A program made the position numbers and the translations under genes. Below, one piece after another: positions 4,551-21,043 of a stretch of 64,000 bases of DNA (positions are counted from its first letter, which is position 1; every line of letters starts with the position of its first letter). The DNA comes from an uncultured Actinomycetota bacterium (GTDB lineage Bacteria > Actinomycetota > Actinomycetes > UBA12327). The notes beneath the pieces were generated by a model. It saw nothing but the letters and a program-made list of their open reading frames with translations, was not told the origin of the DNA and ran no database searches. The stretch covers positions 219,776 to 283,775 of the forward strand of contig CAWKKI010000011.1 of assembly GCA_963850215.1 (NCBI GenBank), given 5' to 3'.

Positions 4551-4567
4551 GCGCTTCTCCTGCTCAG

Positions 4568-4804: not shown

Positions 4805-5236
4805 GTGCCGCACGCGCGCTTCCTCTTCGTCACAGGTCGCCTCATCGCTGGCGTCCCTTCCCCGCACTGGCCAGTTCTTGGTCGCGCCTTCTCTGGTGCT
4901 CCCGGTTACGACGGCTCGTGGGTTGCCTGGCGCGTATCGGGCACCAACAACCGCGAGCTTGGCCGCAGTGCCGAAGTCTTCGAGGATCTCGTGTCCTGCT
5001 TTGAGTCGGCGCTGTACCTGCAGCAGAACATCGGGCGCACCACTGCGGTCGTGGCTGCAGACCATGGCACCGGTCAATGGGTGTGGCAGTTGGACCTGGA
5101 CGGCAAGGCGATGGCCGTCGCGGGTCGCACGTACCAACGCCACCGCGAGTGCCGGCACAGCTTGGCGCAGTTCAGCGAGATCGTCGCCGACCCCACTGCC
5201 CTAGAGCGCATCGTCACTCGGCCAGGCGTCGCATGA
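4805..5236 (+). CDS. Hypothetical protein with two ~45-aa internal repeats (distantly YegP/DUF1508-like), translationally coupled to pstC
   Basis: GTG 4805 is the only in-frame start. Third-position GC is high. The repeats are WVAWRVSGTNNRELGRSAEVFEDLVSCFESALYLQQNI and WVWQLDLDGKAMAVAGRTYQRHRECRHSLAQFSEIV. An ATGA overlap with pstC lies at 5233-5236. Confidence 0.5.
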   Translation: MPHARFLFVTGRLIAGVPSPHWPVLGRAFSGAPGYDGSWVAWRVSGTNNRELGRSAEVFEDLVSCFESALYLQQNIGRTTAVVAADHGTGQWVWQLDLDGKAMAVAGRTYQRHRECRHSLAQFSEIVADPTALERIVTRPGVA

Positions 5237-6261
5237 CCACAGTCATCGACTCCTTCGTGGACTCGGCCGCCCACTCCACCGAGTCGCGTCGCGTGCTACG
5301 AGCCACACCGGACGCCACCGACAAGATCTTCCGGATGTCGGTGCGCGGCAGCGGCATCATCGTTCTCGCGATCATGACGATGGTCGGCGTCTTCTTGCTC
5401 GTTCGTGCGAGCGAGGCGCTGAAGGTCGCTGGGTGGTCGTTCTTCACGACTCAGAACTGGACTCCCGACGTCGGACACGGGCAGTTCGGCATCGTCGCGA
5501 TCATCACCGGCACGATCGCCATCGCACTCGTCGCGTTGTTCGTCGCCATCCCGCTGGCGATCGGAACCGCGCTCTATATATCGGAGTACGCGCCGCGCAA
5601 GTTCAAGCAGACGTTGGTCAGCCTCGTGGACCTGATGGCCGCTGTACCGAGCATCGTCTACGGCCTCTGGGGCGCGTTCTTCCTGCAGTACCGAATTACA
5701 GGCGTCTCGCGCTGGATCTCTACCTACTTCTCCTGGATCCCGATCTTCAAAGTGCCGGGGTCCGATCCGCACGATCCGGTGTCATCGGCGTCGGCCTACA
5801 CGTCGTCCATCTTCATTGCTGGACTCGTGGTCGGTCTGATGGTGACGCCGATCGCCACGTCGATCATGCGTGAGGCTTTCCGCCAGGCTCCGGTCGGCGA
5901 GCGCGAGGGCGCGTATGCGCTGGGTGCGACGCGGTGGGGCATGATCCGCTCGGTCGTCCTGCCGTTCGGAAAGGGCGGCATGATCGGCGGGCTGATGCTC
6001 GGTCTCGGTCGTGCGCTTGGCGAGACGATCGCGGTCGTCACGATCCTGTCGTTCATCGTGCACGTGCAGCCGCACGTCTTGGCCAACGGCGGTAGCTCGG
6101 TTTCCGCCTTGATCGCAACGACCTTCGGGTCGGCCTCGCACTTCGGCCTCTCCGCGCTAATGGCGGCGGGTCTCGCACTGTTCCTCTTGACGCTTGTTGT
6201 GAACTTCATCGCGTCCTCAATCATCGTGCGCAGCCGTTCGGGCGCAGCGACGGATTCATGA
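5233..6261 (+). CDS. pstC: Phosphate ABC transporter permease PstC
   Basis: ORF 5077..6261 was trimmed to ATG 5233. The 342 aa have about 6 TM helices and the EAA-type loop MREAFRQAPVGEREGAYALGATRWGMIRSVVLPFGKGGMIGG. Confidence 0.9.
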   Translation: MTTVIDSFVDSAAHSTESRRVLRATPDATDKIFRMSVRGSGIIVLAIMTMVGVFLLVRASEALKVAGWSFFTTQNWTPDVGHGQFGIVAIITGTIAIALVALFVAIPLAIGTALYISEYAPRKFKQTLVSLVDLMAAVPSIVYGLWGAFFLQYRITGVSRWISTYFSWIPIFKVPGSDPHDPVSSASAYTSSIFIAGLVVGLMVTPIATSIMREAFRQAPVGEREGAYALGATRWGMIRSVVLPFGKGGMIGGLMLGLGRALGETIAVVTILSFIVHVQPHVLANGGSSVSALIATTFGSASHFGLSALMAAGLALFLLTLVVNFIASSIIVRSRSGAATDS

Positions 6262-7661
6262 TGACCGCCGTGATGACCGCGCCCGCGCGGACCGAAGAGC
6301 ACGGGACCACCGTTGTCGACTTGCCTCCCACGTCGCGTCGACGTGAGGTCAGGCGCAATGGGCGCTCCTACCGTCGCAGCGACGTGCTTGCCATCGTCGG
6401 CGCGGGTGCCGCTGGCCTCAGCACCAGCACGCTGTTGTTCACGACGCTGGCGCCGTTCTCTGGCCCCGTTGCCTTCGTGATCATCACGTTCTTGCTCTTC
6501 ATCGCCTTCTACGCCGTCCTCGTCTCGATCGACGAGGATGGCCCGACAGTGCGCGACCGAGTCGCCATGGTCGTCATGCACGGCCTAGCGTTCATCTTGC
6601 TGTCGGCGCTCTGTTTGATCGTCGGATACACCGCGTTCCGCGCTTGGCGTGCGCTCATCCACTGGAACTTCTACACGCAGGACCTCTCGACAGCGGGACC
6701 GACGACACCCCTGAGTCACGGCGGAATCCTGCACGCGGTCGTCGGGACGCTCGAGATGATCACGATTGCGCTGATCCTCACAGTGCCGTTGGCGATCGCA
6801 TGCGCGGTTTACCTCAACGAAGTACCAGGACGATTCGCACGATTCATTCGCACGATCGTCGAGGCGATGACTGCGTTGCCGTCGATCATCGCTGGCCTCT
6901 TTATCCTGGCGACGTTCATTCTGATTCTCGGCGCACCAAAGTCGGGTCTCGCCGCAGCTCTCGCAATCAGCGTCATGATGCTGCCGATCATCATTCGCGC
7001 GGCCGATGTCGTCTTGCGCCTCGTCCCTGGAAGTCTCAAAGAGGCGTCGTATGCGACCGGCGCCAGTCAATGGCGCACGGTGTGGCACGTCACGTTGCCG
7101 ACGGCGCGCTCGGGCCTGGCGACTGCTGTGATTCTCGGTACTGCGCGCGGTATTGGCGAGACCTCGCCAGTCCTGCTCACCGCGGGTTACACCGGTTCGC
7201 TTGCGGTGAACCCGACGCACGGTCCGCAGGTGTCATTGCCGTTGCTGGCGTATCAGCTGAGCCGGTTCCCGCAGGCAACTCTGATCCAACGCGGCTTCGG
7301 CGCAGCAACCGTGCTGCTTGGACTCGTCTTCGTGCTCTTCATCATCGCTCGATTGATCGGTGGTCGCGGGCCTGACGCGTTGTCGCCGCGGCAGCAGCGG
7401 CGCCGCGCGCGCCAGTCCGCGAGCGACGCATCACGCATCGAGGCGCACGACCGGGAGTTGGTCGGGGTCGGCGCTCCGGTCGCGATCGTCGCGTCGCCGG
7501 TGGTCGAGCACGAACCGGAGTGGTTCACGCCCGTTGATGATGACCAGCCAGGCGCTCCGCCGTGGTTCGCGCCCTTGTCGACCCCACCGCCCCCGCCCCC
7601 GGCTGGCATGTACCCGTTCGGCGCGACTGAGCCATTCAAGAAGCCAAGAGGTGCGGAATGA
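6258..7661 (+). CDS. pstA: Phosphate ABC transporter permease PstA with a long Arg- and Pro-rich C-terminal extension
   Basis: An ATGA overlap with pstC is present. The PstA loop is LKEASYATGASQWRTVWHVTLPTARSGLATAVILGTARGIGETSPVLLTAG. About 105 extra C-terminal residues end in PPWFAPLSTPPPPPPAGMYPFG. Confidence 0.9.
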   Translation: MMTAVMTAPARTEEHGTTVVDLPPTSRRREVRRNGRSYRRSDVLAIVGAGAAGLSTSTLLFTTLAPFSGPVAFVIITFLLFIAFYAVLVSIDEDGPTVRDRVAMVVMHGLAFILLSALCLIVGYTAFRAWRALIHWNFYTQDLSTAGPTTPLSHGGILHAVVGTLEMITIALILTVPLAIACAVYLNEVPGRFARFIRTIVEAMTALPSIIAGLFILATFILILGAPKSGLAAALAISVMMLPIIIRAADVVLRLVPGSLKEASYATGASQWRTVWHVTLPTARSGLATAVILGTARGIGETSPVLLTAGYTGSLAVNPTHGPQVSLPLLAYQLSRFPQATLIQRGFGAATVLLGLVFVLFIIARLIGGRGPDALSPRQQRRRARQSASDASRIEAHDRELVGVGAPVAIVASPVVEHEPEWFTPVDDDQPGAPPWFAPLSTPPPPPPAGMYPFGATEPFKKPRGAE

Positions 7662-9438
7662 CCCGCGCCAGAAAGAACAAGGACTCCGTGCGCAAGCGTT
7701 CTCTTCGTCGTGTTCGCACAATCCAACTTGTCGCTGCGGCAGTGGTGCTCGGCGCGTTGGGCGCCGCGCTGTCCGCGGGAGTGGGCCCAACCTCAGCCCA
7801 AGCTGCCTCATACGTTCCGGTCAGTGGCGCTGGCTCGACCTGGAGCCAGGTGGCGATGGATGCCTGGCGAGTCGACGTCGCGCAGTACGGGATGCGCATC
7901 GACTTCTCCGGTACGGGTTCGTCCGACGGTCGCAACCAGTTCCGCAACGGCACGGTCGACTTCGCGAACTCCGACATTCCTTACGGTCTGAAGGACACGG
8001 GCGTTATCGACCCACCCCCAACCCGCGGCTACGCATACATGCCGATCGTCGCCGGTGGCACCACGTTCATGTACAACCTCGTCATCGGTGGACACCGCGT
8101 CACCAACCTGCGGCTGTCCGGTCAGACGCTGACGAAGATCTTCACCAACAACATCACCAAGTGGAACGACCCAGCGATCGCCGCTGACAACCCTGGCTTA
8201 AGCCTTCCTGCACTGAAGATCGAGGTTGTCGTTCGTTCAGATGGATCTGGTTCAACCGCACAGTTCTCCGATTGGATGGCGTCGCAGTACCCATCCTTGT
8301 GGAACGGCTACTGCAGCAAGGCTGGGCGCCCGTCGCCCTGTGGCACCACGTCGTTCTACCCGACAGTCTCTGGACGAGTTTCACCGCACAGAACGGTGAC
8401 ACGGGCGTGGCCGGGTACGTGCAGCAGTCGCAGAACGTCGGCTCTATCGGCTATGTCGAGTACGCATATGCGATCGCGGCGCGCTTCCCGGTTGCGAAGA
8501 TCCTCAACAAGGCCGGCTACTTCACTGAGCCGACGGCACAGAACGTTGCCGTGTCTCTCCTCAAGGCTTCGATCAACACGGACAAGACGTCGCCCGCGTA
8601 TCTCACTCAGGTCCTGTCCGGCGTTTACAACGACACGGATCCGCGAACTTATCCACTGTCCAGTTACAGCTACATGATCATTCCGACTGCGACAACGTCG
8701 ACGTTCACCGCCGCAAAGGGCTACACGCTCGCCGCCTTCGGCTATTTCTTCTTATGCCAGGGGCAGCAGCAGGTCGACCAGCTTGGCTACTCCGCGCTGC
8801 CGATCAACCTCGTGCAGGCTGGCTTCGCGCAACTCAAGCGGATCCCGGGCGCCGTGGCGCAGACGATCAACATCAAGGGCTGCAACAACCCCACTTTCTC
8901 CAGCAGCGGGGCGAACACGCTTGCCACGACTGCACCGCAGCCAGCCAAGTGCGACAAGCAGAGCAAGTACCAGTGCTCTACGGGCACTGCAGGTGACTTG
9001 AGTCCAACGCCCATCTTGGCTTCGGCGGTGCTCCCGGGCAGTGGCTCGGTGTCGAACGGTGGCACGGGCAACACCTCCGGTACCGGTTCATCAGGAACTA
9101 GCGGGTCGGGGACCAATGGCGCCGGAACAACGGGCGCCGGAACAACGGGCGCCGGAACAACGGGCGCCGGAACGACCGGCGGTACCGGCACGGCAGGAAA
9201 CGGGACAACCGGTGCGGCCGGCACAGGAGGCACGGCAGGTACTACTAACACTGCCGGATCCAACCTCGCCGGGGGAGCCGCGACATCAGACGTGGCGGCA
9301 ATCGCAGTCACCGTTCCTGGCGCAGGCGAGTCGAGCAGTGACATCGCGCTGATTGTTGTGGCCGGACTGCTGCTGCTCGGCATCACGCTGGGACCTCCCG
9401 CGATGTCAGTCGCGATGCAACGAAAGAACAAGGAATGA
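7658..9438 (+). pseudogene. PstS-family phosphate-binding protein, C-terminally membrane-anchored, with its reading frame broken by a 1-nt indel
   Basis: Frame-2 ORF 7658..8677 gives a signal peptide (SAQA/AS) and the PstS N-lobe blocks SGAGSTW, GTGSSDG, VDFANSDIP and VRSDGSGST. Frame-1 ORF 8272..9438 continues with the C-lobe (NGDTGVAGYVQQSQNVGSIGYVEYAYA). A Gly/Thr/Ser linker and a C-terminal TM helix plus QRKNKE follow. The halves join only if one nucleotide is added between 8358 and 8376 (YPTVSG|TSFTAQNGD). Confidence 0.75.
9118..9177 (+). repeat. 15-bp tandem repeat x4 (GGCGCCGGAACAACG) encoding (GAGTT)n in the linker of the PstS-like protein
   Basis: Three DNA-identical copies occupy 9118-9162. 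A fourth copy at 9163-9177 has 2 substitutions. Confidence 0.9.
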
Positions 9439-11924
9439 GCACGCGCGGTCAGCACCGCGGTCGTCGGGAGAGCTTCCTGCGTGCCATGACGCGCGCAGGT
9501 GTCGGTACTTCGCTGATCGCAATCCTGGGACTTGTCGCGCTCACTTTTGCGACTGGTCCTGGACCAGCGAACGCAGCATCCACCAAGGCCAAGCCGCTCG
9601 CGGCCAGTTCGGGTTCTGCGCTCACGAAGAGTGGGTCGGGATCCTTTTCAGATCTCAAGGTCACCCTGAGTCAGACGCAAGACCTCGTGAACCAGGTAAT
9701 CAATGTCACCTGGACGGGCGCAGCCCCAACACAGCCGGCGTACGGAGGCTTCGGCATCAACTATCTGCAGATCATGCAGTGCTGGGGGGACGACTCGTCG
9801 GGGCCCACTCGCGAACAGTGCGAGTTTGGCGGCAACCCAGGTAACACCCTTGGCGGGAGTTGGACGTCGTCGCGGCAGACCACGTACAGCGGGCTGGTGG
9901 ATCCGAACGAGACCTACACCGTGCCCCCGGGCAGTTTTGCCAACGCCTACGTCCCATTCGACTCGGTCACCGGAACCGTCGAAAAGGATGGGGCTAGCTC
10001 CTTCTTCGACTCGTACACGACCAACGAGATTGACTACGCGCGCACTCACTCCGACGGCTCCGGCCAGGAGTACTTCCAGATCGACACCGGTGTGGAGGCT
10101 TCAGGGCTCGGCTGCGGCCAGTCCGAGAAGGTCGGCTCGACCTCTAAGCCACGTGCGTGCTGGCTCGTGGTCGTCCCGCGAAATGACATTGAGGTCGACG
10201 GCAGTACCCGTGACGCCACCGGTGTGAACGAGATCGTGTCCTCGCCGTTGAGTGCGACCAACTGGGCAAAGCGCATTGTGTTTCCACTCGGTTTCACAGC
10301 CGTCGGGCAGAACTGCCCAATCTCGGCGATCGCCGAGCCGACGAGCGGGGAAGAGACTGCGCTCGAGGCCGTAACCCGATGGCAACCAACCCTGTGCGCG
10401 AAGAACGGACCGGTCTTCGGTTACACCCAGTTGTCGTCGGACGTGTCGCGCAGCGTCTTGGCCTCAACCACCCCAAATCTGCAGTTCCTGTCGAGACCGC
10501 TAGACGCGACGGACGGGACCCCTGCGGGCAAGCCGGTCTATGCACCCGTATCTGTGTCGGGAGTCTCGATCGCATTCCTGATTGAACGACAGACGTCGCC
10601 AACCGCAGATCCAGCAGTGAAGGCTTCCGATGGGGTTCGAATGGGGACCCTGAATCTGACTCCGCGGCTTGTCGCGAAACTTCTGACTGAGTCCTACCGC
10701 GAGGCCGTTACCTCAGACGACGCGACTTACCTCGCGAACAACCCGCTCGACTTGACGCGCGATCCAGAGTTTCTTGCTCAAAACCCCGACTTTTCAACGT
10801 TGAAGTACCTCAACGGCATCTCGAGCATCATCGTGCCTACGGGTACGGCAGATGCGTACTACCAACTGTGGCAATGGATTTGGGCAAACGCTGACGCGCG
10901 CGCCTTCCTGCAGGGCAAGGCCGATCCCTACGGCGAGACCGTCAATCCCCACTACAAGACCCTGACTTTTCCTGCGGACAACTTCCCGAAGGCTGAACCG
11001 GCCTGCAGGACCTTCCCGTTGTCGACCATCTCCCGCCCGCCCCTCTGTGAGTTGGACGCGTTCCCGTACGCGATCAGCATGCACGCGGGAGCGCAGGCAG
11101 TCAGCGGCGGTAGCGACCTATCCAAGGACCTGTGGGACCCGACTGCGACACCGCCCTCCTACAAGGCATCGCCACCGCAGATCGAAGGCAACCGGGGACT
11201 CCTCGTGCTCGCGGACACCCCGACCGCAATTCGATACGGCCTGAATATGGCGAGCCTGCAGAATTCAGATGGTCAGTTCGTGGCCCCCACCACCACGAGC
11301 ATCACTGCGGGTTTGAAGACGTTCAAGGCGGATTCTGCTGGCGTACTGGAGCCGGTGGCGGCGACGAAGGTCAGCGGCGCATACCCGCTGACGACCATCA
11401 CCTACGCGGCAACTGCACCGTCAAAACTCACGCCTGCGTCCGCGCATGACTACGCAACTTTCCTGCGCTATGCAATCGGTTCAGGTCAAACCCTCGGCGT
11501 CGCGCCGGGCTCTCTCCCGTACGGCTACGTGCCGCTCACGTCTGGGCTAAAGGCAACAACTGCAACGGTCGCGAACGAACTCGCTGCCGTAAAGGCCACG
11601 AGTGCGACGCCGGCGTCGACGCCCACGACTGGCAACACGTCGGGCGAACTAGGTGACTCGTCAGGTGGCTCGACCGGTGACTCGTCGTCCGCTACCTCTC
11701 AGACAACTTCGAACGTTGCTGCGCCTACCGGAACCGGTAGCGCGACGCAACCAACCAGCACGTCGCCCGCTGGCGACGCGCTCTCCCTGACCCCCGCGGC
11801 CGTCCGCTCGCCATCGGTTCCGATCGGTGCTGTGCGATTCGCGCTCGTGGGCGCACTACTCATCGGAGGCATCGCGGCCGGCGCCGGTCCGTTGCTGATG
11901 AGGGCTTCACAGGTGGCGGTGTGA
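9435..11924 (+). CDS. Large secreted, C-terminally membrane-anchored protein with an unassigned N-terminal region and a divergent PBP-like C-terminal region
   Basis: 829 aa, with an ATGA overlap with the upstream gene. It has a signal peptide (GPANA/AS) and a ~300-aa Cys-containing region with no recognised family. PBP-like blocks are PVYAPVSVSGVSIAFL, LNLTPRLVAKLLT and AYPLTTITYAA. A Ser/Thr/Gly-rich linker and a terminal TM helix (FALVGALLIGGIAAGAGPLLM) follow. Confidence 0.8.
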   Translation: MSTRGQHRGRRESFLRAMTRAGVGTSLIAILGLVALTFATGPGPANAASTKAKPLAASSGSALTKSGSGSFSDLKVTLSQTQDLVNQVINVTWTGAAPTQPAYGGFGINYLQIMQCWGDDSSGPTREQCEFGGNPGNTLGGSWTSSRQTTYSGLVDPNETYTVPPGSFANAYVPFDSVTGTVEKDGASSFFDSYTTNEIDYARTHSDGSGQEYFQIDTGVEASGLGCGQSEKVGSTSKPRACWLVVVPRNDIEVDGSTRDATGVNEIVSSPLSATNWAKRIVFPLGFTAVGQNCPISAIAEPTSGEETALEAVTRWQPTLCAKNGPVFGYTQLSSDVSRSVLASTTPNLQFLSRPLDATDGTPAGKPVYAPVSVSGVSIAFLIERQTSPTADPAVKASDGVRMGTLNLTPRLVAKLLTESYREAVTSDDATYLANNPLDLTRDPEFLAQNPDFSTLKYLNGISSIIVPTGTADAYYQLWQWIWANADARAFLQGKADPYGETVNPHYKTLTFPADNFPKAEPACRTFPLSTISRPPLCELDAFPYAISMHAGAQAVSGGSDLSKDLWDPTATPPSYKASPPQIEGNRGLLVLADTPTAIRYGLNMASLQNSDGQFVAPTTTSITAGLKTFKADSAGVLEPVAATKVSGAYPLTTITYAATAPSKLTPASAHDYATFLRYAIGSGQTLGVAPGSLPYGYVPLTSGLKATTATVANELAAVKATSATPASTPTTGNTSGELGDSSGGSTGDSSSATSQTTSNVAAPTGTGSATQPTSTSPAGDALSLTPAAVRSPSVPIGAVRFALVGALLIGGIAAGAGPLLMRASQVAV

Positions 11925-12012
11925 TCAACCGCCGAATCCTTCCTGCTCCACCCGCACGACGGCAGGTCGCGACACCGGGTCTCGACTGCCGAGCACAAGA
12001 AGGAGACAGTCA

Positions 12013-14638: not shown

Positions 14639-14667
14639 TTGGCCTAAGTGCGAGGTAGCTCCACACC

Positions 14668-14703
14668 GGGGGTGGGGCGGGTTCTCGGACCTGTCCCACC
14701 CCC
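14668..14703 (+). terminator. GC-rich stem-loop between the WxL-like and DUF916-like genes (possible intra-operon attenuator)
   Basis: GGGGGTGGG (14668-14676) pairs perfectly with CCCACCCCC (14695-14703) across an 18-nt loop. No U-tract follows. Confidence 0.35.
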
Positions 14704-14720
14704 ACCAAAAGCCCGGTGAC

Positions 14721-15857: not shown

Positions 15858-16717
15858 ACTTCCGCAGGTACCGGCGTGTTCAGGCCGGATTACTAACGAG
15901 CGTCGTGGCTGTCGTGGTCATGGGCGGCGTTGTCGCCACTGCAAATGCCGCGCCAGTGCCCGCGCAATCGTCGATGAGCACTCTCTCGTTCAGCCCGGCA
16001 TCGGGCAACGACCAGACCCGCATGTCTGTCACCACGTCAGGGCCCTGCTCGGCAGGAACGAATCTGATCGTTCGCGTCTATGGGTACGGGTTCCCAACAC
16101 AGGGTCAGAACGTCGTGGGAAACACGGCCGTGTCGACCTTCGTTGAGACTGCAAACGGTGGTCGGGTAGTGCCCCTTGAAGACACGATGCGCAGTTTCGC
16201 GGCGCAGCAGGCGACCCCGTTTCTCCTGAAGGGCAAGTACACGTTCGGGCTGCGTTGCATCCAGCCGCTTCAGTGGGACACCCCGCTCGACCTGTTCACG
16301 GGTGCGATCAACTTCACCTCGGCCGGCGCTTACTCGGCGCTTCCAGCATCGGCCGCGAGCGTGCCCAAGGGTGCCAACAATGTGCCCGTCGCCACGACGA
16401 CCCCCAAGTCGTCGTCCACGACGCCAGCGAAATCGGCGACTCCTTCTTCAAGTCCGACGGCGGCTGTGAGTTCGACGCCAGCTAGCAGCGCCGCACCAAC
16501 AACGTCGGACGCTGGCTCGGTTCCAGGCGCCTCCTCGGGCGCCCAGGCGGCCGGGGCACCCGTCGCCTCAACCTCCCTGTCGGGTGGCGGTGGCTCGATG
16601 GCGTGGCCGCTCCTACTGGCGTTGGTCGCCATCGCGCTCATTGCCGCTGGCGTCTTCTGGTATTTCCGGCGCGAGCCGGCGTCCGCAAATCCGTCCGCGC
16701 ACCGCACGAGAAAGTGA
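15854..16717 (+). CDS. Secreted protein: shared N-domain + Ser/Thr/Pro/Ala-rich linker + C-terminal TM anchor
   Basis: ORF 15584..16717 was trimmed to GTG 15854 (GTGA overlap). It has a signal peptide (ATANA/AP). The N-domain carries GYGFPTQGQNVVG and YTFGLRC. The anchor is a TM helix LLLALVAIALIAAGVFWYF plus RRE. Confidence 0.75.
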   Translation: MNFRRYRRVQAGLLTSVVAVVVMGGVVATANAAPVPAQSSMSTLSFSPASGNDQTRMSVTTSGPCSAGTNLIVRVYGYGFPTQGQNVVGNTAVSTFVETANGGRVVPLEDTMRSFAAQQATPFLLKGKYTFGLRCIQPLQWDTPLDLFTGAINFTSAGAYSALPASAASVPKGANNVPVATTTPKSSSTTPAKSATPSSSPTAAVSSTPASSAAPTTSDAGSVPGASSGAQAAGAPVASTSLSGGGGSMAWPLLLALVAIALIAAGVFWYFRREPASANPSAHRTRK

Positions 16718-17946
16718 CCCCCGCAGTGAACATCTCCGACACGGCGAAGACCACTACCCGCACGACTGTGCGCCGGAGCAGGTCCGTGATGGCCGCTGGC
16801 ATCGTCTCGCTCGCCACGGCGATCGGCTTTGCCGGCGTTGCGTTGAACATGCCTGCCGCCTCGGCGGCTTCCGAGGGAGCACTGACAATCGCTCCCGCAA
16901 GCGGCACGGATACCTCATTGCTTACGGCGACGACTACAAGTACTTGTAGTGATCCGTCGGCTGACCACTTTTCAATCTCGATCTCGGGTAGTGGTTTCAC
17001 CGGTCAGGTCAATGTCGTCGGTACGTCCAGTCTCACCACGGTCACCTCGGGGAACGGCTATTCAGCTCCCATCCAGAACACGTTGGCCGTGATCGCTTCG
17101 CTCCAGTCGCCAGCAGTCGTCTACACCGGCGACTACGTCCTCGACTTCAAGTGCCGCAGTGCCATTAGCTCCACGAGTCTCGGCGACTTCACCGGAACGA
17201 TCCACTTCACCGACCCGCACACGTACACGTTCGTAGCACCAACGACGAGCCCTTCGACGTCGCCGTCAACGAGCCCCTCAACTAGCCCTTCGACGTCGCC
17301 GTCAACGAGCCCGTCAACAAGTCCTTCGACGAGCCCCTCAACCAGCCCGTCGACAAGTCCGTCGACGAGCCCCTCAACCAGCCCCTCAACCAGCCCATCG
17401 ACGTCGCCGTCCACGACCCCGTCCGACAGCACATCTGCGAGTGCAAGCCCCACCGACTCGACGAGTCAAATCACCTGTTCCGCGACCGATGACATGGGCA
17501 CACCGCTTGGCGACAACCCGACACTCGACCCGGGCCAGAACGTCAGCGTGACCGCCACGGGCTTTGCTGCGGCTGCCTCAGTTGATGTGACGGTGCATTC
17601 GACGCCGCAGGATCTCGGCACTGTTACAGCGGACTCCACGGGCACCGTCACTTACGCGTTCCTTGTGCCAACGACCCTCGAGGCGGGAGCGCACACTCTG
17701 GTGTTCACCTCGGGATCAACGACCGGGACGTATGCCTTTGTCGTCAGCACGACCGCGGCTACCACGGCGGCAGCCGACGGCGGTACGACCGATGGTGGGA
17801 CGACGGACACCGCTGGGTCGACGCTGCCTCACACCGGGGCTGATGTGGTCATCTACCTGCTTGTGGCTCTCATCCTGATGGTCACTGGAGTGGGTTTCCT
17901 CGCGTGGAGCGGTGGGCTCGTGACATCAAACGGACGGCACCGGTGA
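16714..17946 (+). CDS. LPXTG cell-wall-anchored protein: shared N-domain + (STSP)n linker + Ig-like domain + LPHTG sorting signal
   Basis: GTG 16714 forms a GTGA overlap, and GTG 16726 is an alternative start. It has a signal peptide (AASAAS) and an N-domain with GSGFTGQVNVVG and YVLDFKCR. The C-terminus is LPHTG + hydrophobic helix + GRHR. Confidence 0.8.
   Translation: MTPAVNISDTAKTTTRTTVRRSRSVMAAGIVSLATAIGFAGVALNMPAASAASEGALTIAPASGTDTSLLTATTTSTCSDPSADHFSISISGSGFTGQVNVVGTSSLTTVTSGNGYSAPIQNTLAVIASLQSPAVVYTGDYVLDFKCRSAISSTSLGDFTGTIHFTDPHTYTFVAPTTSPSTSPSTSPSTSPSTSPSTSPSTSPSTSPSTSPSTSPSTSPSTSPSTSPSTSPSTTPSDSTSASASPTDSTSQITCSATDDMGTPLGDNPTLDPGQNVSVTATGFAAAASVDVTVHSTPQDLGTVTADSTGTVTYAFLVPTTLEAGAHTLVFTSGSTTGTYAFVVSTTAATTAAADGGTTDGGTTDTAGSTLPHTGADVVIYLLVALILMVTGVGFLAWSGGLVTSNGRHR
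17245..17418 (+). repeat. Coding (Ser-Thr-Ser-Pro)n array of about 14 units of 12 nt with synonymous-codon variation
   Basis: The translation is TSPSTSPSTSP...STTPS. Ser is coded by AGC/TCG/TCA/AGT/TCC and Pro by CCT/CCG/CCC/CCA. Only short stretches are DNA-identical. Confidence 0.9.
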
Positions 17947-18947
17947 TCACGGTGCTTGAGCGCACGTTGGTAGCCATCGCTTCGGGGTCGCTTCTCGCCG
18001 GCGCCTTGGTGTTGCAGGCTGGGGCGGCCCACGCCGTTTCGGTCGGCAGTCTTACCGTTGCCCCAACCTCGGGCAGCGACGCGTCTCTCTTGACGTTGGC
18101 GACCGGAAGTACCTGCACGGATTCGTCTGCCACCTACGTCTCGGTTGCGATCAGCGGCTCCGGATTCGCTGCGGGTGGCACGAATGTTGTGGGCGCTGCC
18201 CAGATCAGTGACCTCACTCATTCGGCAACGGGGTATGTGATCCAGGTCAGCAACACGCTGGCCGCGATCGCGTCACTTCAGCATCCCGCGGTCACTTATG
18301 TCGGCGACTACACCTTCGACGTCAAATGTCGGTTGGCTCTGGACTTCACCAGCCTGGGCGACTTCACAGCAACGATCCACTTCAGCGATCCGCACACGTG
18401 GTCCGTGGTGAGCGGCACTGCGCCGCACTTCACCATCGCGGCGCACCTCACCGGAACCGCTCGTGTTGGCTACACCTCGGGTTGCTCGGCGTCGGTCACT
18501 GGCTCGACCAGCCTTCAATACGTATGGCTGCGCAACGGCGTCACCATCTCAGGCGCCACGCACTCCACCTACGTGGTGCAGCCGGCCGACAATGCCCACA
18601 CCTTGGCATGCGAGCTGATCGCCAAGAACGCTGCCGGTTCCACGACGAGCAAGGCCGCGGCCCGTTATGTCGAGCCCGGCTATCTGCACAACGTGGTGCA
18701 TCCGACTCTCTCCGGTCACGCCATCCACGGCTACACGTTGGCCTGCCGAGCGGGTGCCTGGTCACCGGCACCCAGCCATTACGCATATGGCTGGCTGCTC
18801 AACGGTGTTCACATCCGAGGCGCGGCGGCAAGCACGTTGAAGTTGGCGACCACCTACAAGGCGCACACGATCGCTTGTCAGGTCACTGCGTCAAAGACCG
18901 GATACCTCAGCGTCACAGTGCGAACGAGCGCGGTGAAGGTCAGCTGA
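17943..18947 (+). CDS. Secreted protein: shared N-domain + two Ig-like repeats, no anchor recognised
   Basis: ORF 17904..18947 was trimmed to GTG 17943 (GTGA overlap). It has a signal peptide (QAGAAHA) and an N-domain with GSGFAAGGTNVVG and YTFDVKCR. Two ~80-aa repeats follow the pattern G..L.C...W...P..YAYGWLLNG..I.GA...Y......H.IAC.V.A. Confidence 0.75.
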   Translation: MITVLERTLVAIASGSLLAGALVLQAGAAHAVSVGSLTVAPTSGSDASLLTLATGSTCTDSSATYVSVAISGSGFAAGGTNVVGAAQISDLTHSATGYVIQVSNTLAAIASLQHPAVTYVGDYTFDVKCRLALDFTSLGDFTATIHFSDPHTWSVVSGTAPHFTIAAHLTGTARVGYTSGCSASVTGSTSLQYVWLRNGVTISGATHSTYVVQPADNAHTLACELIAKNAAGSTTSKAAARYVEPGYLHNVVHPTLSGHAIHGYTLACRAGAWSPAPSHYAYGWLLNGVHIRGAAASTLKLATTYKAHTIACQVTASKTGYLSVTVRTSAVKVS

Positions 18948-18949
18948 CC

Positions 18950-20035
18950 GTGTCCCTTGACTCCGAGGCCGCTCTGGCCGTTGGTACTGAACCGGTAGCG
19001 CCGGTCGCCAACGGCCAGTCCGGTGCTGTGCCGTCCAACGGGACTCACGTAACAGAACTCGCGGCGCCCAACCCCGCGGAGATGGTCGACCTGCCGCACC
19101 CGGACCTCGGCACGCCGAGCACCGAGTTGCAGGTCGATGCCGACGATCATCTAGTCGATGACGACGACGAGGAGTCGACGGCCGCCCCACGCCGCGACGG
19201 GCTCTGGATCATGGGCGTCGCCCTGACCACACTCGGCGTCATCGTGCTCGGCTTTCTGGCTGCATTCCTGGTGATCGGCCCGATCAAGTACCACCGTGCG
19301 CAGACCGTGGAGTACGCGCAACTGCGCTACGAACTCGCGAACTCGATCGCGCCGGTCGGTCAAACCGACTACAACGGCAAGCTTCTGACCCCTGGCACAC
19401 CAGTGGCTCTGCTCAGCATCCCGGCCATCAAGCTGACGACGGTTGTGTCCGAGGGCACGACTGGCGAGATCCTGCAGAACGGGCCTGGACATCGGCGTGA
19501 CAGCGCGATGCCAGGGCAGCCCGGAGCCAGCGTCATCTATGCGCGTCGGCTCGGCTTCGGCGGTCCGTTCGGATCTCTGCCTTCGTTGAAGCCCGGTGAC
19601 CCGATCTACGTGACTACCGGACAAGGCGTCTCGACGTACACCGTTGCGGACGTGCGCTACGCCGGGGACAAAGAACCGTCGGTGCAGATCAATCACGGCT
19701 TGCTCAGTCTGGTTACCGCCGGCGGCTCGCGCTTCCTGCCCAACGGAGTTGTAGCCGTTGACGCGAATCTGACGTCGACACCGCAGCAGGCGCCCGGTGC
19801 CGTGATCGGCTCTAACGCCCTGAGCCGCTCGGAAGGCCCGATGCAGGGCGATCCGAGTGCTTGGGTCGGGCTCGTGCTCTGGGGTGAGCTACTCGTTGGC
19901 GCGACGGTCGCCATGGTGTGGGCGCGCAAGCGATGGGGGATATGGCAAGCCTGGATTGTTGGCGTTCCCGTAGTCGTTCTCCTGGGAGTTCTGGTTGCCA
20001 ACCAGATCACCACCTTGCTACCGAACATGCTGTGA
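18950..20035 (+). CDS. Sortase-fold homologue lacking the catalytic His, Cys and probably Arg (cysteine-free), with one N-terminal and two C-terminal TM helices
   Basis: ORF 18326..20035 was trimmed to GTG 18950, 2 nt after the previous stop. The blocks GPGHRRDSAMPGQPGASVIYARRLGFGGPFGSLPSLKPGDPIYV and LLSLVTAGG align by eye to the sortase GH-PG / IAGHR / GAPF / GD and TLxTC blocks. There is no Cys anywhere in the 361 aa. Confidence 0.75.
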   Translation: MSLDSEAALAVGTEPVAPVANGQSGAVPSNGTHVTELAAPNPAEMVDLPHPDLGTPSTELQVDADDHLVDDDDEESTAAPRRDGLWIMGVALTTLGVIVLGFLAAFLVIGPIKYHRAQTVEYAQLRYELANSIAPVGQTDYNGKLLTPGTPVALLSIPAIKLTTVVSEGTTGEILQNGPGHRRDSAMPGQPGASVIYARRLGFGGPFGSLPSLKPGDPIYVTTGQGVSTYTVADVRYAGDKEPSVQINHGLLSLVTAGGSRFLPNGVVAVDANLTSTPQQAPGAVIGSNALSRSEGPMQGDPSAWVGLVLWGELLVGATVAMVWARKRWGIWQAWIVGVPVVVLLGVLVANQITTLLPNML

Positions 20036-20041
20036 GCACTG

Positions 20042-21043
20042 ATGACTAACGAGGGTGAAATGACAGCCACCGACGACTTCTCCATCGCACTGCCCGACGC
20101 AAACGGGCATGCAGCGAACGGCCTCGCCGCGACCCTGCCGGCATACGCGGGAGCCCCAGCGATGACGGTCATCCCCGGACAGCCGATGCCACACGTGGCA
20201 CCGCCGGTGCCGCAGCAACCCGACGAGGTCGTGCTTCCGGGCGCTCGGCCCAACGGTGTTCGCGGCGCGATCGGAGACCTCGACGCACGCTCGATCTCTG
20301 CCTGGTTCGGCGATCACAAGGTGCTCGACCGAGTCTCGTTGCACATGCCGAGTGGCGAGGTAACCGCGCTTATTGGACCTTCCGGTTGCGGCAAGTCGAC
20401 GTTCCTGCGCACGTTGAATCGCATGCACGAGTTGATCCCGTCGGCATCCCTGGCCGGCGAGGTTCTCCTCGACGGCCAGGACATCTACGCGCCCGATCGG
20501 CGCCTCACCGAGGCACGACGACAGATCGGGATGGTCTTTCAACGCCCCAACCCTTTCCCCGCGATGTCCATTTACGACAACGTGATCGCGGGGCTGAAGC
20601 TCACCGGCAAGAAGGCGTCGACGGCTGAGAAGGACGGAATTGTCGAGACGCACTTATGAAGGCCGGGCTGTGGAAGGAAGTCAAGGACCGGCTGCGGCAG
20701 CCAGGCGGTGGACTTTCCGGTGGTCAGCAGCAGCGGCTGTGCATCGGACGGGCCCTTGCGTATCCAGCCGCGCGTGCTGCTTATGGACGAGCCATGTTCG
20801 GCGCTCGACCCGACGTCGACGCGCCGAATCGAGCAGACGATCGTCGAGCTTCGCGAAGAAGTGACGATCGTCATCGTCACGCACAACATGCAGCAGGCCG
20901 CGCGCGTCTCAAGCCGATGTGCCTTCTTCCTGGCGGAGGCCGGCACGCCAGGCGTGATAGTCGAGCACGGCTCAACCGAGGCGATGTTCGAAACTCCGCG
21001 CGACCCGCGCACCGCCGACTACGTGAATGGGCGCTTCGGTTAG
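20042..21043 (+). pseudogene. pstB: Phosphate ABC transporter ATP-binding protein PstB, interrupted by two compensating frameshifts
   Basis: Frame 2 (20042..20659) carries Walker [10 protein letters not shown] and ends at TGA 20657. Frame 1 (20656 to ~20760) carries [31 protein letters not shown]. Frame 2 resumes from 20762 with [33 protein letters not shown] and YVNGRFG. There is also an unusual ~75-aa Pro-rich N-terminal extension. Confidence 0.8.

What the first reader, a model, noticed from the sequence alone, without database searches (positions are those of the whole stretch)
4805..21043. Pst phosphate-importer operon split by a 12-kb, nine-gene cell-surface module (candidate undescribed system)
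Canonical operons are pstS-pstC-pstA-pstB. Here pstC (5233) and pstA (6258) are separated from pstB (20042) by nine same-strand genes (7658-20035). The chain is physically tight. There are 4-nt ATGA/GTGA start-stop overlaps at 5233, 6258, 7658, 9435, 15854, 16714 and 17943. Gaps of 2 nt and 6 nt occur after 18947 and 20035. Only three larger gaps of 43-88 nt exist, after 11924, 13032 and 14638. Every inserted product has a signal peptide or an N-terminal TM helix. The set comprises three PstS/PBP-type binders, a WxL-like protein, a DUF916-like protein, four paralogues sharing an unassigned N-domain, one LPXTG substrate and a cysteine-free sortase homologue. I know of no described system that embeds a Csc/WxL-type surface complex inside a phosphate ABC importer operon. 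The simplest hypothesis is a wall-spanning phosphate capture or relay scaffold feeding PstCA.
Basis: partly seen in the sequence, partly recalled or inferred. Interest (0 to 1): 0.85.

Follow-up and report, generated by a model that had tools for sequence, protein, structure and literature searches.

The report
Phosphate importer operon with built-in surface module
A phosphate-uptake (Pst) operon carrying nine cell-surface genes between its membrane and ATPase genes is real and is kept in the same order in dozens of actinobacteria, so it looks like an undescribed, wall-reaching version of the phosphate importer, although two of its genes are frameshifted in this particular sequence.

Summary
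pstC and pstA pass NCBI's equivalog cut-offs.

One lies in the PstS-like gene at 8373/8374. Two compensating ones lie in pstB at about 20655 and about 20760.

Among 80 loci seeded with the DUF916-like gene, 34 show the full colinear order: g0, pstC, pstA, PstS, G4, G5, WxL-like, DUF916-like, head-domain paralogues, sortase-like, pstB. Thirteen more are Pst-linked.

About 25 sister loci place the same WxL-like/DUF916-like pair inside the zinc-type "anchored repeat" ABC importer cluster.

- G3 keeps all phosphate-binding motifs.
- G4 has a PstS fold with a rebuilt site.
- The sortase homologue lacks the catalytic Cys and His in all 151 sequences aligned.
- Gene fusions tie the parts together: PstA-PstS and DUF916-head.

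No paper or curated model describes this system.

Best reading: a surface-extended phosphate capture apparatus feeding PstCAB. The architecture is shown; the mechanism is inferred.

The parts
4699..4731 (+). Candidate PHO-box-like 11-nt repeats (GTTCACCTTTG TTTCTGGTCAT GTTTGCTGCCC), about 100 nt upstream of g0
   Evidence: The block is conserved in the 83%-related locus L084. A comparable footprint, GTTCAT..GTTCGG..TTCAC, is conserved upstream of g0 in three Streptomyces and one Kitasatospora. The shuffle test gave mixed results, 9/500 for the window. Inferred, not shown.
4805..5236 (+). g0: small conserved protein with no signal peptide, probably a tandem YegP/UPF0339 (DUF1508)-like protein, translationally coupled to pstC
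   Evidence: 4-nt overlap with pstC. Homologues lie upstream of pstC in many loci. The family profile hits PDB 3bid, a UPF0339 protein, at E 0.029. A faint PF07411 hit appears in L090. dN/dS is 0.05.
5233..6261 (+). pstC, phosphate ABC permease subunit
   Evidence: TIGR02138 at 252.3 bits, above the 196.45 cut-off.
6258..7661 (+). pstA, phosphate ABC permease subunit with long N- and C-terminal extensions
   Evidence: TIGR00974 at 198.3 bits, above the 193.45 cut-off. In Kitasatospora L090 it is fused to the PstS-like gene as one 969-aa ORF.
7658..9438 (+). G3: PstS-type phosphate-binding protein with a signal peptide, a Gly/Thr-rich linker of about 110 aa and a C-terminal TM anchor. It is frameshifted here by a 1-nt deletion between 8373 and 8374.
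   Evidence: TIGR00975 matches two frames (profile 2-158 and 169-311). The homologue in L084 is an intact 586-aa protein. It aligns to PstS crystal structures (8ods, E 8.8e-37) with the phosphate-ligand motifs kept: SGAGSTW, GTGSSDG, NSD, RSDGSGS. dN/dS is 0.03-0.06 in both halves.
9435..11924 (+). G4: 829-aa protein made of a signal peptide, a beta-rich N-domain (residues 60-295), a complete PstS fold with a remodelled binding site (about 300-720), a disordered Ser/Thr linker (723-799) and a C-terminal TM helix
   Evidence: AlphaFold2 mean pLDDT 82.8. Foldseek top hits are all PstS proteins (4lvq, E 2.5e-12, TM-score 0.76 on the target). At least 899 homologues exist; all that carry a source name are called 'hypothetical' or given a generic label, and none has a Pfam domain. 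The canonical phosphate motifs are replaced, judged by reading the sequence against alignment A2.
12013..13032 (+). G5: secreted, unanchored, distant PstS-family binding protein
   Evidence: The family profile hits only phosphate-binding proteins in the PDB (9l8j at 0.0035, 1twy at 0.0077). Weak PF12849 hits appear on homologues. GSG and AGSGTR motifs are invariant.
13076..14638 (+). G6: surface stalk protein made of the head N-domain, two Big_3_5 Ig domains and a C-terminal WxL-like domain
   Evidence: PF16640 occurs twice. AlphaFold2 mean pLDDT 86.6, showing four beta domains. 22 of 120 listed homologues carry PF13731 WxL. The same C-terminal domain occurs in the Micromonospora zinc-cluster protein.
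14721..15857 (+). G7: DUF916/WxLIP-like membrane-anchored scaffold made of a signal peptide, two beta domains, a TM helix and an Arg-rich tail
   Evidence: PF06030 at 26.8 bits against a 27.3 cut-off. 18 of 20 family members match, best E 1.2e-10. It is fused to the G8 equivalent in Streptomyces, Hamadaea and Kitasatospora.
15854..16717 (+). G8: head N-domain, Ser/Thr/Pro linker and C-terminal TM anchor
   Evidence: N-domain alignment. An HMM of the N-domain finds the equivalent gene in most colinear loci.
16714..17946 (+). G9: head N-domain, (SPST)n linker, a second domain and an LPHTG sorting signal
   Evidence: PF00746 at 18.9 bits, E 0.0015. The equivalents in 24 of the other 37 colinear loci scanned end in LAxTG, which from established knowledge is the class E sortase motif.
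17943..18947 (+). G10: head N-domain plus two Ig-like repeats, with no anchor
18950..20035 (+). G11: membrane-embedded pseudo-sortase with the sortase fold but without the catalytic Cys and His, one N-terminal TM helix and two C-terminal TM helices
   Evidence: PF04203 at 59.7 bits. NF033747 class E at 76.5 bits, far below the 160 cut-off. The nearest PDB entries are class E sortases 5go5 and 5cuw. Among 151 aligned sequences (the window's plus 150 representatives), the Cys position is A/S/T/G/V/L and never C, and the His position is R or K.
20042..21043 (+). pstB, phosphate ABC ATPase, disrupted here by a 1-nt deletion (20655/20656) and a 1-nt insertion (about 20760)
   Evidence: TIGR00972 matches three frame segments (profile 3-124, 127-161, 159-248). 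Codon-level alignment to 8 homologues locates the indels. The gene is intact, at 249-267 aa, in L085, L086 and L087.

Best explanation
This is one copy of a conserved, so far undescribed actinobacterial variant of the Pst phosphate importer. The permease and ATPase genes (pstC, pstA, pstB) bracket their own cell-envelope module, and the whole set is inherited and probably transcribed as one unit.

**Shown**
- PstCA and PstB are orthodox Pst components.
- G3 is a bona fide PstS. It is tethered to the membrane by a C-terminal helix through a flexible linker of about 110 residues, not by the usual lipid anchor. That is long enough to reach through a Gram-positive wall.
- G4 is a second tethered PstS-fold protein with a rebuilt pocket.
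- G5 is a free, distant PstS relative.
- G7 is a DUF916/WxLIP-type membrane-to-wall scaffold. It is paired with G6, a stalk protein with a WxL-like C-terminus.
- One family-specific head domain is displayed on four different anchors: WxL-like, TM tether, LPxTG/LAxTG, and none.
- G11 is a sortase-fold protein that cannot act as a cysteine transpeptidase.

**Inferred**
- Under phosphate limitation the module forms a wall-spanning assembly.
- That assembly concentrates or captures phosphate, or a phosphate-bearing ligand, at and within the wall.
- It hands the phosphate to tethered G3, which docks on PstCA for ATP-driven import.
- The pseudo-sortase acts as a non-catalytic organiser or receptor for the sorting-signal protein.

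In this window G3 and pstB carry frameshifts. These are either very recent lesions or sequence errors.
For: **Conserved colinearity.** 34 of 80 loci fetched through G7 show the full order, and 13 more are Pst-linked. They span more than 10 genera and several orders at 45-80% identity. Gene calls confirm the order in cultured strains: Streptomyces sp. NBC_00885, Hamadaea tsunoensis, Amycolatopsis mediterranei and Kitasatospora sp. NE20-6.

**Translational coupling.** Seven 4-nt overlaps link the genes, and there is no excess of terminator-like sites.

**Purifying selection on all tested genes.** dN/dS is 0.03-0.29.

**Rosetta-stone fusions.** PstA-G3 is a single ORF in Kitasatospora. G7-G8 is a single ORF in three genera.

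**G3 keeps the phosphate-ligand motifs**. G4 has a PstS fold. G5 is PstS-like.

**A parallel zinc system.** The sister clade of the WxL-like/DUF916-like pair sits in about 25 loci inside the 'anchored repeat' zinc-type ABC importer cluster. There too a head domain (choice-of-anchor M) appears on WxL-like, LPXTG and TM anchors. That cluster is Zn/Zur-repressed together with its surface proteins in C. diphtheriae (PMC6711530).

**A PHO-box-like footprint** lies upstream of g0.
Against: - No expression, binding or transport data exist for any member.
- The head N-domain has no recognisable ligand site, and its fold is a generic beta-sandwich.
- G4 has lost the canonical phosphate-binding residues.
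- The cluster contains no phosphatase or other hydrolase.
- PHO-box support is statistically mixed: several loci are no better than shuffles.
- G6 itself does not reach any Pfam WxL score, and G7 falls 0.5 bit under the DUF916 gathering threshold.
- In this window the binding protein and the ATPase are both frameshifted, so this copy may be non-functional.
- I could not check whether these genomes also hold a canonical pstSCAB.
Confidence: 0.55

Rival explanations
1. The Pst genes and the surface module are neighbours by history only. On this view a Csc/WxL-type adhesin or surface-decoration cluster landed inside a pst operon in an ancestor. It is carried along with no functional connection to phosphate uptake. 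The surface proteins serve adhesion, hyphal surface properties or host/particle binding.
For: - WxL/DUF916 clusters in Firmicutes are linked to adhesion and cell-surface display, not transport (PMC10599100, PMC1534035).
- G6 looks like a generic Ig-stalk adhesin by Foldseek.
- No ligand site has been identified in the head domain.
Against: - The order is kept at 45-65% identity across several orders. Rearranged variants (L004, L005, L015, L032, L036, L022) still keep the Pst linkage.
- Three of the nine inserted genes are themselves PstS-fold proteins.
- PstA-PstS and DUF916-head fusions exist.
- Nearly every resolvable locus of this DUF916-like family sits next to an ABC importer, either Pst or anchored-repeat zinc type.
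Confidence: 0.12
2. The system imports or senses something other than free orthophosphate. Candidates are another oxyanion, or a phosphate-bearing polymer or mineral surface such as polyphosphate, teichoic-acid fragments or apatite. The divergent binders G4 and G5 and the head domain would provide the real specificity. The module would mainly attach the cell to that substrate.
For: - The G4 pocket is rebuilt: the canonical T/F, GSGGG, ASD and RxDGSGT motifs are replaced, with conserved acidic residues and a Cys pair.
- G5 lacks the equivalents of Asp56 and Arg135 of E. coli PstS, judged by reading alignment A5.
- G5 shows the highest dN/dS in the cluster, 0.29.
- Several stalk and adhesin-like proteins are present.
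Against: - PstC and PstA exceed the phosphate-specific equivalog cut-offs.
- PstB is 70-81% identical to PstB of relatives in most loci.
- G3 keeps the complete orthophosphate-binding signature.
- No hydrolase that could release phosphate from a polymer is encoded in the cluster.
Confidence: 0.18
3. In this particular genome the locus is a decaying pseudogene cluster. The phosphate-binding protein and the ATPase are inactivated, and the system no longer works here, whatever it does elsewhere.
For: - Three frameshifts fall within the 16-kb cluster.
- Twenty other genes checked across the remaining window, roughly 30 kb, show full-length family coverage.
- The hits fall on the two functionally essential soluble components.
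Against: - Both halves of G3 show very strong purifying selection against the 83% relative, dN/dS 0.03-0.06.
- The out-of-frame pstB segment still encodes a perfect LSGGQQQRL signature.
- All other cluster genes are full length.
Confidence: 0.3

Closest known systems
Canonical PstSCAB high-affinity phosphate ABC importer (E. coli, Mycobacterium, Streptomyces)
   Same: - PstC, PstA and PstB are orthologous by curated models.
- G3 has the PstS fold and phosphate-ligand motifs.
- A PHO-box-like sequence lies upstream.
   Different: - The gene order is pstC-pstA-pstS...pstB, with about 10.6 kb and eight further genes lying between the PstS gene and pstB.
- PstS is held by a C-terminal TM helix on a linker of about 110 residues. 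In Gram-positives it is normally a lipoprotein (established knowledge).
- There are two extra PstS-fold paralogues.
- PstA carries long extensions.
- No phoU lies next to the cluster.
Actinobacterial 'anchored repeat' ABC transporter system (NCBIfam TIGR03769-TIGR03773, choice-of-anchor M; C. diphtheriae troA-dip0445, PMC6711530)
   Same: - It is an ABC importer whose operon also encodes several envelope proteins displaying one shared head domain on alternative anchors: LPXTG, TM, and in Micromonosporaceae a WxL-like C-terminus.
- In Micromonosporaceae and other actinobacteria it contains a homologous WxL-like/DUF916-like pair. G7 is 35-42% identical, and the G6 C-terminal domain 41-48%.
- It is nutrient-regulated as one block in C. 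diphtheriae.
   Different: - It uses a metal (ZnuA/TroA-type) transporter, not Pst.
- Its head domain (His-rich choice-of-anchor M) is unrelated to the N-domain here and is also inserted into the binding protein.
- No pseudo-sortase and no extra binding-protein paralogues were seen there.
- No TIGR03769-family hit occurs in the window.
Csc / WxL surface-protein clusters of Firmicutes (Lactiplantibacillus, Enterococcus; PMC1534035, PMC10599100)
   Same: - A DUF916-type membrane-anchored protein is paired with a large protein ending in a WxL-type domain, plus a small LPXTG protein.
- All the products are secreted.
   Different: - This cluster is found in Actinomycetota.
- G6 does not reach the Pfam WxL score, and no DUF3324 domain was detected.
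- It is embedded in an ABC importer operon.
- It contains PstS-fold proteins and a pseudo-sortase.
- The Firmicute clusters are tied to adhesion or carbohydrate use, not transport.
Isd-type heme relay of Staphylococcus aureus (from my own knowledge, not tested here)
   Same: The design principle is the same. Wall-anchored receptors sharing one binding domain sit at different depths, a dedicated sortase-family gene lies in the locus, and an ABC importer sits at the membrane end.
   Different: - No NEAT domains are present.
- The cargo would be an anion, not heme.
- The sortase homologue here is catalytically dead.
- Ligand transfer is entirely hypothetical here.
Class E sortases (S. coelicolor SrtE1, PDB 5cuw; PDB 5go5)
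   Same: - These are the best sequence matches for G11 (E 3.3e-09).
- G11 has the same fold family, PF04203, and an N-terminal TM anchor.
- The neighbouring head-domain proteins usually end in LAxTG, the class E motif.
   Different: - The catalytic Cys is replaced (A/S/T/G/V/L) and the catalytic His is replaced by Arg or Lys in all 151 sequences aligned.
- There are two extra C-terminal TM helices.
- The score is far below the class E cut-off, 76.5 against 160.

Membership tests
Pst phosphate ABC importer | PstC and PstA permease subunits reach the curated equivalog scores | tested here: met
   TIGR02138 scores 252.3 against a cut-off of 196.45. TIGR00974 scores 198.3 against 193.45.
Pst phosphate ABC importer | Intact PstB ATPase with Walker A, the signature motif and Walker B in one frame | tested here: not met
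   In the window, TIGR00972 is split over three frame segments (142, 44.9 and 120.9 bits; cut-off 343.2), with an in-frame TGA at 20657-20659. The gene is intact in relatives L085, L086 and L087.
Pst phosphate ABC importer | PstS binding protein with the orthophosphate-ligand residues | tested here: met
   G3 aligns to phosphate-bound PstS 8ods at E 8.8e-37, with SGAGSTW, GTGSSDG, NSD and RSDGSGS conserved. However, the gene is frameshifted here.
Pst phosphate ABC importer | Contiguous pstS-pstC-pstA-pstB operon | tested here: not met
   The order is g0-pstC-pstA-pstS(G3), then eight further genes, then pstB. The same order recurs in 34 relatives.
Csc/WxL surface cluster | DUF916 (PF06030, WxLIP peptidoglycan-binding domain) protein with a C-terminal TM anchor | tested here: inconclusive
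   The window's G7 scores 26.8 bits against a gathering score of 27.3. 18 of 20 family members match at E<0.01, best 1.2e-10.
Csc/WxL surface cluster | Protein ending in a WxL domain (PF13731) | tested here: inconclusive
   G6 gets no hit even at E<=5. 22 of 120 listed full-length homologues carry a precomputed PF13731 hit.
Csc/WxL surface cluster | DUF3324 (WxLIP host-binding domain) following DUF916 | tested here: not met
   No such hit appears in G7 or in the 20 family members.
Sortase (cysteine transpeptidase) | Sortase fold/domain | tested here: met
   PF04203 scores 59.7 bits against a cut-off of 26.6. There are PDB hits to class E sortases.
Sortase (cysteine transpeptidase) | Catalytic Cys of the TLxTC motif and the catalytic His | tested here: not met
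   G11 has no Cys at all. Among 151 aligned sequences the Cys column is A111/S19/T8/G6/V5/L2 and the His column is R146/K5.
Anchored repeat ABC transporter system (TIGR03769-03773) | TIGR03769 / choice-of-anchor M repeat in the surface proteins and in the binding protein, with a TroA-type transporter | tested here: not met
   No such NCBIfam hits occur in any window protein. They are present in the sister loci, for example L003.
Anchored repeat ABC transporter system (TIGR03769-03773) | One head domain displayed on alternative anchors, encoded inside an ABC importer operon | tested here: met
   The N-domain sits on G6 (WxL-like), G8 (TM), G9 (LPHTG) and G10 (no anchor). This is a resemblance in design, not homology of the head domain.
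Isd-like wall relay | Direct ligand binding by the wall-displayed domains and transfer to the importer's binding protein | not testable with these tools
   This needs binding and transfer assays. No NEAT or other known ligand-binding domain was detected.

The most novel reading that the evidence does not exclude
The cluster encodes an Isd-like, wall-spanning relay for an anion. The family-specific head domain, displayed at four depths (WxL-bound stalk, sortase signal, membrane tether, free), would bind phosphate or a phosphate-bearing ligand. It would pass the ligand inward through G5 and G4 to the tethered PstS (G3) and then to PstCA. A catalytically dead sortase would have been recruited as a structural receptor for the LAxTG signal. 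Together with the zinc-type sister clusters, this would define a general actinobacterial strategy of 'surface-extended' ABC importers built on a WxL/DUF916 scaffold.
Probability: 0.2. Interest if true: 0.85.

Novelty: new variant of a known kind. Interest (0 to 1): 0.66.

Why it matters
**Open question it touches.** Phosphate is often the limiting nutrient for soil actinomycetes, and its supply controls antibiotic production. The Pst system is the textbook high-affinity importer. How substrates cross the thick Gram-positive wall to reach membrane-bound binding proteins is rarely addressed outside heme uptake.

**What is new here.** This is a widespread, conserved Pst variant with its own envelope apparatus.
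- G4 has at least 899 homologue clusters.
- The pseudo-sortase family has 253 representatives at 50% identity.
- Carriers include Streptomyces, Amycolatopsis mediterranei, Kitasatospora and Saccharothrix.
- Its parts are a tethered PstS, two further PstS-fold proteins, a WxL/DUF916 scaffold, a head domain on alternative anchors and a pseudo-sortase.

**Why it is testable.** Cultured, genetically tractable strains carry the cluster.

**Wider consequences.**
- It gives a first functional context for several protein families that sources label only 'hypothetical' or generically.
- It extends WxL/DUF916 biology from Firmicute adhesion to actinobacterial nutrient import.
- It identifies a conserved, catalytically inactive sortase family.

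Tried and rejected
1. **Phosphate regulation through PHO boxes.** A scan for three 11-nt-spaced GTTCACC-like units upstream of g0 gave mixed results. It beat shuffles in the window, L084, L085, L089, L090 and L047, but not in L086, L087, L013, L028, L034 or L049. A conserved footprint exists in Streptomyces and Kitasatospora. I treat regulation as unproven.
2. **Relating the shared N-domain to the N-terminal domain of G4.** hhalign found no relation.
3. **Function for G6 from structure.** Foldseek against the PDB returned only generic multi-Ig stalk proteins.
4. **Direct sequence search of G4 and G5 against the PDB.** Nothing was found. G4 needed a fold comparison and G5 a family profile.
5. 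**BLASTP of G5 against G3.** Not significant.
6. **Identifying the organism.**
   - Exact-sequence look-ups returned unnamed NCBI/ENA entries on a 351-kb contig.
   - The window holds no rRNA gene.
   - The nearest species representatives are only 42-48% identical for G7.
7. **Plasmid carriage of G4.** None found.
8. **General indel problem in the assembly.** Rejected as far as tested: 20 other genes show full-length profile coverage.
9. **Locus L001.** It first looked like a block without pst genes. Its upstream edge cuts a 586-aa gene the size of G3, so it says nothing either way.
10. **Literature searches.** No paper was found that links DUF916/WxL with Pst or that mentions pseudo-sortases. 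The library lacks most subscription journals.

Full report
**1. The observation**

The window is about 64% G+C. It carries an uninterrupted same-strand chain of thirteen genes from 4805 to 21043.

- 4-nt ATGA/GTGA overlaps at 5233, 6258, 7658, 9435, 15854, 16714 and 17943;
- gaps of 2 nt and 6 nt after 18947 and 20035;
- gaps of 88, 43 and 82 nt after 11924, 13032 and 14638.

A consensus scan finds no more terminator-like sites than shuffles give, and none on the + strand in the three larger gaps.

pstC (5233-6261) and pstA (6258-7661) exceed NCBI's phosphate-specific equivalog cut-offs: 252 against 196 bits and 198 against 193 bits.

**2.

Two genes are not open as sequenced.

The PstS-type gene 7658-9438 matches TIGR00975 in two frames, at profile positions 2-158 and 169-311.
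- A close relative from a JGI metagenome, L084 (G4 83% identical), has an intact 586-aa gene.
- Alignment places a 1-nt deletion in the window between 8373 and 8374.

pstB matches TIGR00972 in three frame segments.
- Against eight homologues the window has a 1-nt deletion at 20655/20656 and a 1-nt insertion near 20760.
- These create an in-frame TGA at 20657-20659.
- They shift the perfectly conserved LSGGQQQRL signature into another frame.

Twenty other genes elsewhere in the window show full-length domain coverage. The assembly is therefore not generally indel-ridden.

Selection data argue against long-standing decay. dN/dS between the window and L084 is 0.03 and 0.06 for the two halves of the broken PstS gene, and 0.05-0.29 for the other genes. 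The lesions are either very recent or sequence errors. I cannot tell which without the reads.

**3. The components**

| Gene | Coordinates | What it is |
|---|---|---|
| g0 | 4805-5236 | Small protein with no signal peptide, probably YegP/UPF0339-like, coupled to pstC |
| G3 | 7658-9438 | True PstS on a membrane tether |
| G4 | 9435-11924 | PstS fold with a rebuilt pocket, also tethered |
| G5 | 12013-13032 | Secreted, distant PstS relative |
| G6 | 13076-14638 | Stalk with a WxL-like C-terminal domain |
| G7 | 14721-15857 | DUF916/WxLIP-like scaffold |
| G8, G9, G10 | 15854-18947 | Head-domain paralogues on different anchors |
| G11 | 18950-20035 | Pseudo-sortase |

*G3.* Its binding domain aligns to phosphate-bound PstS structures (8ods, E 8.8e-37). 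The ligand motifs SGAGSTW, GTGSSDG, NSD and RSDGSGS are kept. It has a signal peptide without a lipobox. A Gly/Thr-rich linker of about 110 residues leads to a C-terminal TM helix.

*G4.* It has no Pfam, NCBIfam or PDB sequence match. The AlphaFold2 model (mean pLDDT 82.8) shows four regions:
- a beta-rich domain at residues 60-295;
- a complete PstS fold at about 300-720;
- a disordered linker at 723-799;
- a TM helix.

The Foldseek top 48 hits are all phosphate-binding proteins; the best is M. tuberculosis PstS3 at E 2.5e-12 with a target TM-score of 0.76. Read against its family alignment, the canonical phosphate motifs are replaced, so the pocket has been rebuilt. The family has at least 899 members. 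All that carry a source name are called 'hypothetical' or given a generic label.

*G5.* It is secreted and unanchored. Its family profile hits only PstS-family PDB entries, at marginal E-values of 0.0035 and 0.0077. Homologues get weak PF12849 hits. GSG and AGSGTR loops are invariant.

*G6.* The AlphaFold2 model (mean pLDDT 86.6) shows an all-beta protein of four domains:
- the head N-domain;
- two Big_3_5 Ig domains;
- a C-terminal domain.

G6 itself gets no Pfam WxL hit. However, 22 of its 120 listed homologues carry PF13731. Foldseek returns only generic Ig stalks.

*G7.* It has the topology of a WxL-interacting protein. PF06030 scores 26.8 bits against a gathering score of 27.3. Eighteen of 20 family members match.

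*G8, G9, G10.* They share the G6 N-domain at 31-50% identity, with two invariant Cys. They differ in the anchor:
- G8 has a TM tether;
- G9 ends in LPHTG;
- G10 has no anchor.

*G11.* It has the sortase fold (PF04203, 59.7 bits) and is nearest to class E sortases 5go5 and 5cuw. It contains no cysteine.
- In about 30 syntenic homologues the TLxTC cysteine is replaced and the catalytic histidine is Arg.
- The same holds in 151 aligned sequences (the window's plus 150 representatives at 50% identity). The Cys column reads A111, S19, T8, G6, V5, L2. The His column reads R146, K5.
- It is a conserved pseudo-enzyme. The family has 253 representatives at E<=1e-30.
- I found no paper on such proteins.

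**4. Is the linkage conserved?**

I seeded a scan of 185,579 species genomes with the G7 family. I then compared all window proteins with the 80 loci returned.

| Class | Loci |
|---|---|
| Complete colinear order | 34 |
| Pst-linked, on truncated contigs | 8 |
| Pst-linked in another order (mostly Acidimicrobiales; also Frankiaceae and Mycobacteriales MAGs) | 5 |
| No pst within 10 kb (mostly anchored-repeat zinc-type clusters) | 25 |
| Contig too short to judge | 8 |

One locus (L022), counted among the 25 without pst, keeps the PstS-, PstA-, G4-, G5- and sortase-like genes nearby on the opposite strand.

The complete order is g0, pstC, pstA, G3, G4, G5, G6, G7, then the remaining head-domain paralogues, then G11 and pstB. 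These loci come from many Streptomyces and from Saccharothrix, Actinokineospora, Lentzea, Amycolatopsis, Actinocrinis, Acidothermaceae, Frankiales, Dactylosporangium, Catellatospora and Rugosimonospora. Typical identities are about 65% for PstC, 45% for G4 and 80% for PstB.

Independent gene calls confirm the order, with intact pstB, in Streptomyces sp. NBC_00885, Hamadaea tsunoensis and Amycolatopsis mediterranei. In Kitasatospora sp. NE20-6 pstB runs off the end of the fetched locus.

Most colinear loci hold two to four copies of the head domain; in a few the HMM detects one or none. Where the HMM detects G6, it ends in the WxL-like domain. In 24 of the other 37 loci scanned one copy ends in LAxTG, the class E sortase motif. 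There is often a TM-tethered copy and a free copy as well.

Two gene fusions tie the parts together:
- PstA and the PstS-like G3 form a single 969-aa ORF in Kitasatospora.
- G7 and the G8 equivalent form a single ORF in Streptomyces, Hamadaea and Kitasatospora.

G4 is not found on plasmids.

**5. The sister system**

Most of the remaining resolvable loci are from Micromonospora, Plantactinospora, Glycomyces, Asanoa and Phytohabitans. They place a homologous WxL-like/DUF916-like pair inside a different ABC importer cluster.

NCBIfam identifies that cluster as the 'anchored repeat' ABC transporter:
- TIGR03772 at 850 bits;
- TIGR03771, TIGR03770 and TIGR03773;
- the choice-of-anchor M domain.

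In L003 it lies beside alternative ribosomal-protein genes, cobW and FUR-family regulators. There the His-rich head domain appears on a protein with the same C-terminal domain as G6, on an LPRTG protein, on a TM-anchored protein, and inserted in the binding protein.

In C. diphtheriae the equivalent troA-dip0445 cluster is repressed by zinc and Zur together with its surface-anchored proteins. The function of those proteins is still unknown (PMC6711530). A 2025 paper on tethered metal-'fishing' domains also lists DUF916 as a frequent neighbour (PMC12537917).

So among the 80 best-matching loci, this actinobacterial DUF916-like family is found almost exclusively next to nutrient ABC importers, in two flavours: phosphate and zinc.

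**6. How it most likely works**

*Shown:*
- an orthodox PstCAB core;
- a phosphate-competent PstS on a long membrane tether;
- two further PstS-fold proteins;
- a WxL/DUF916-type scaffold;
- one head domain on alternative anchors;
- an inactive sortase;
- conserved order, translational coupling, purifying selection and fusions.

*Inferred:* the module forms an envelope-spanning assembly that captures phosphate, or a phosphate-bearing ligand, at or within the wall. It delivers it to G3 and PstCA.

The linkers of G3 (about 110 residues) and G4 (about 77 residues) are long enough, if extended, to span a Gram-positive wall. That is my own estimate at about 0.35 nm per residue.

Regulation by phosphate is suggested only by a PHO-box-like sequence 100 nt upstream of g0, GTTCACCTTTG... 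It is conserved in L084. A conserved GTTCAT..GTTCGG..TTCAC footprint occurs in three Streptomyces and one Kitasatospora. These can be compared with validated PHO boxes quoted in PMC3004843. The shuffle test is mixed.

Rival readings are scored in the rivals section:
- historical hitch-hiking of an adhesin cluster;
- a cargo other than orthophosphate;
- decay of this particular copy.

**7. Comparison with what is known, and novelty**

The core is a member of the Pst family. The module resembles Firmicute Csc/WxL clusters. It fails or only borders their Pfam criteria, and it has never been linked to transport.

The design matches the curated but functionally unexplained anchored-repeat zinc system. 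In principle it also matches the Isd heme relay (my own knowledge). It shares neither system's cargo-binding domain.

No paper in the searchable library joins DUF916/WxL with Pst. Pfam and NCBIfam have no model for G4, G5, G8 or the head domain.

I class it as a new variant of a known kind: an ABC importer with envelope-anchored accessory proteins. It is built from several undescribed protein families.

**8. Verdict**

The finding is real, conserved and undescribed.

Three caveats lower the score from 0.85:
- the mechanism is unproven;
- a curated analogue exists;
- this copy carries three frameshifts.

Interest 0.66.

Noticed in passing
window 4567-4641 (-): A tRNA-Leu gene lies immediately upstream of the cluster, about 160 nt before g0. 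The same tRNA-like sequence sits in the same place in the 83%-related metagenome locus L084.
   Followed up: partly
L090 3095-6004 (Kitasatospora sp. NE20-6): pstA and the PstS-like gene form a single uninterrupted 969-aa ORF. It reads permease, then TM helix, then PstS domain, then Gly/Thr linker, then TM helix. In this fused copy the Asp of the 'SD' phosphate motif is Glu.
   Followed up: partly
L085 15433-17277; L086 14803-16599; L090 11476-13158: The DUF916-like scaffold and a head-domain protein (the G7 and G8 equivalents) are fused into one three-TM polypeptide in Streptomyces, Hamadaea and Kitasatospora. In the window and in A. mediterranei they are separate genes.
   Followed up: partly
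L003 and about 25 further loci (L043-L082): In Micromonosporaceae and Glycomyces the homologous WxL-like/DUF916-like pair sits inside the 'anchored repeat' zinc-type ABC transporter cluster. In L003 that cluster lies beside L31/L28/L33/S14 paralogues, cobW and FUR-family regulators. The WxL-like protein there carries a choice-of-anchor M head.
   Followed up: yes
L087 1-1556 (Amycolatopsis mediterranei): An OmpR-type response regulator and a HAMP histidine kinase lie just upstream of the cluster on the same strand. I did not determine whether they are PhoPR-like or are conserved in other Pseudonocardiales.
   Followed up: no
window 21073-21546 (-) and 21581-22291 (-): Two adjacent Bcp-type AhpC/TSA peroxiredoxin paralogues lie directly downstream of pstB on the opposite strand. 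They are followed by a NicO-family nickel/cobalt transporter at 22260-23333 (+).
   Followed up: partly
window 32034-35150 (-): A 1038-aa ORF carries NHL-repeat beta-propeller and three fibronectin type III domains. Its GC3 signal is lower than that of its neighbours.
   Followed up: no
window 37342-39381 (-) and 36945-37595 (-): A CopD-Caa3_CtaG fusion protein of 679 aa is followed by a SpoIIAA-like protein. A tRNA-Lys lies at 36847-36921.
   Followed up: no
window 8000-20000: GC skew is persistently negative across the surface-module genes. Cumulative skew falls from about 0 to -0.9. This probably reflects the Thr/Ser/Ala/Pro-rich (ACC/TCC/GCC/CCC) composition of the secreted proteins.
   Followed up: no
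window 62042-62923 (+): A homologue of the Rv2466c-like mycothiol-dependent nitroreductase (PF22234, 204 bits) is present. This is consistent with a mycothiol-using actinobacterium. The organism itself could not be named.
   Followed up: no
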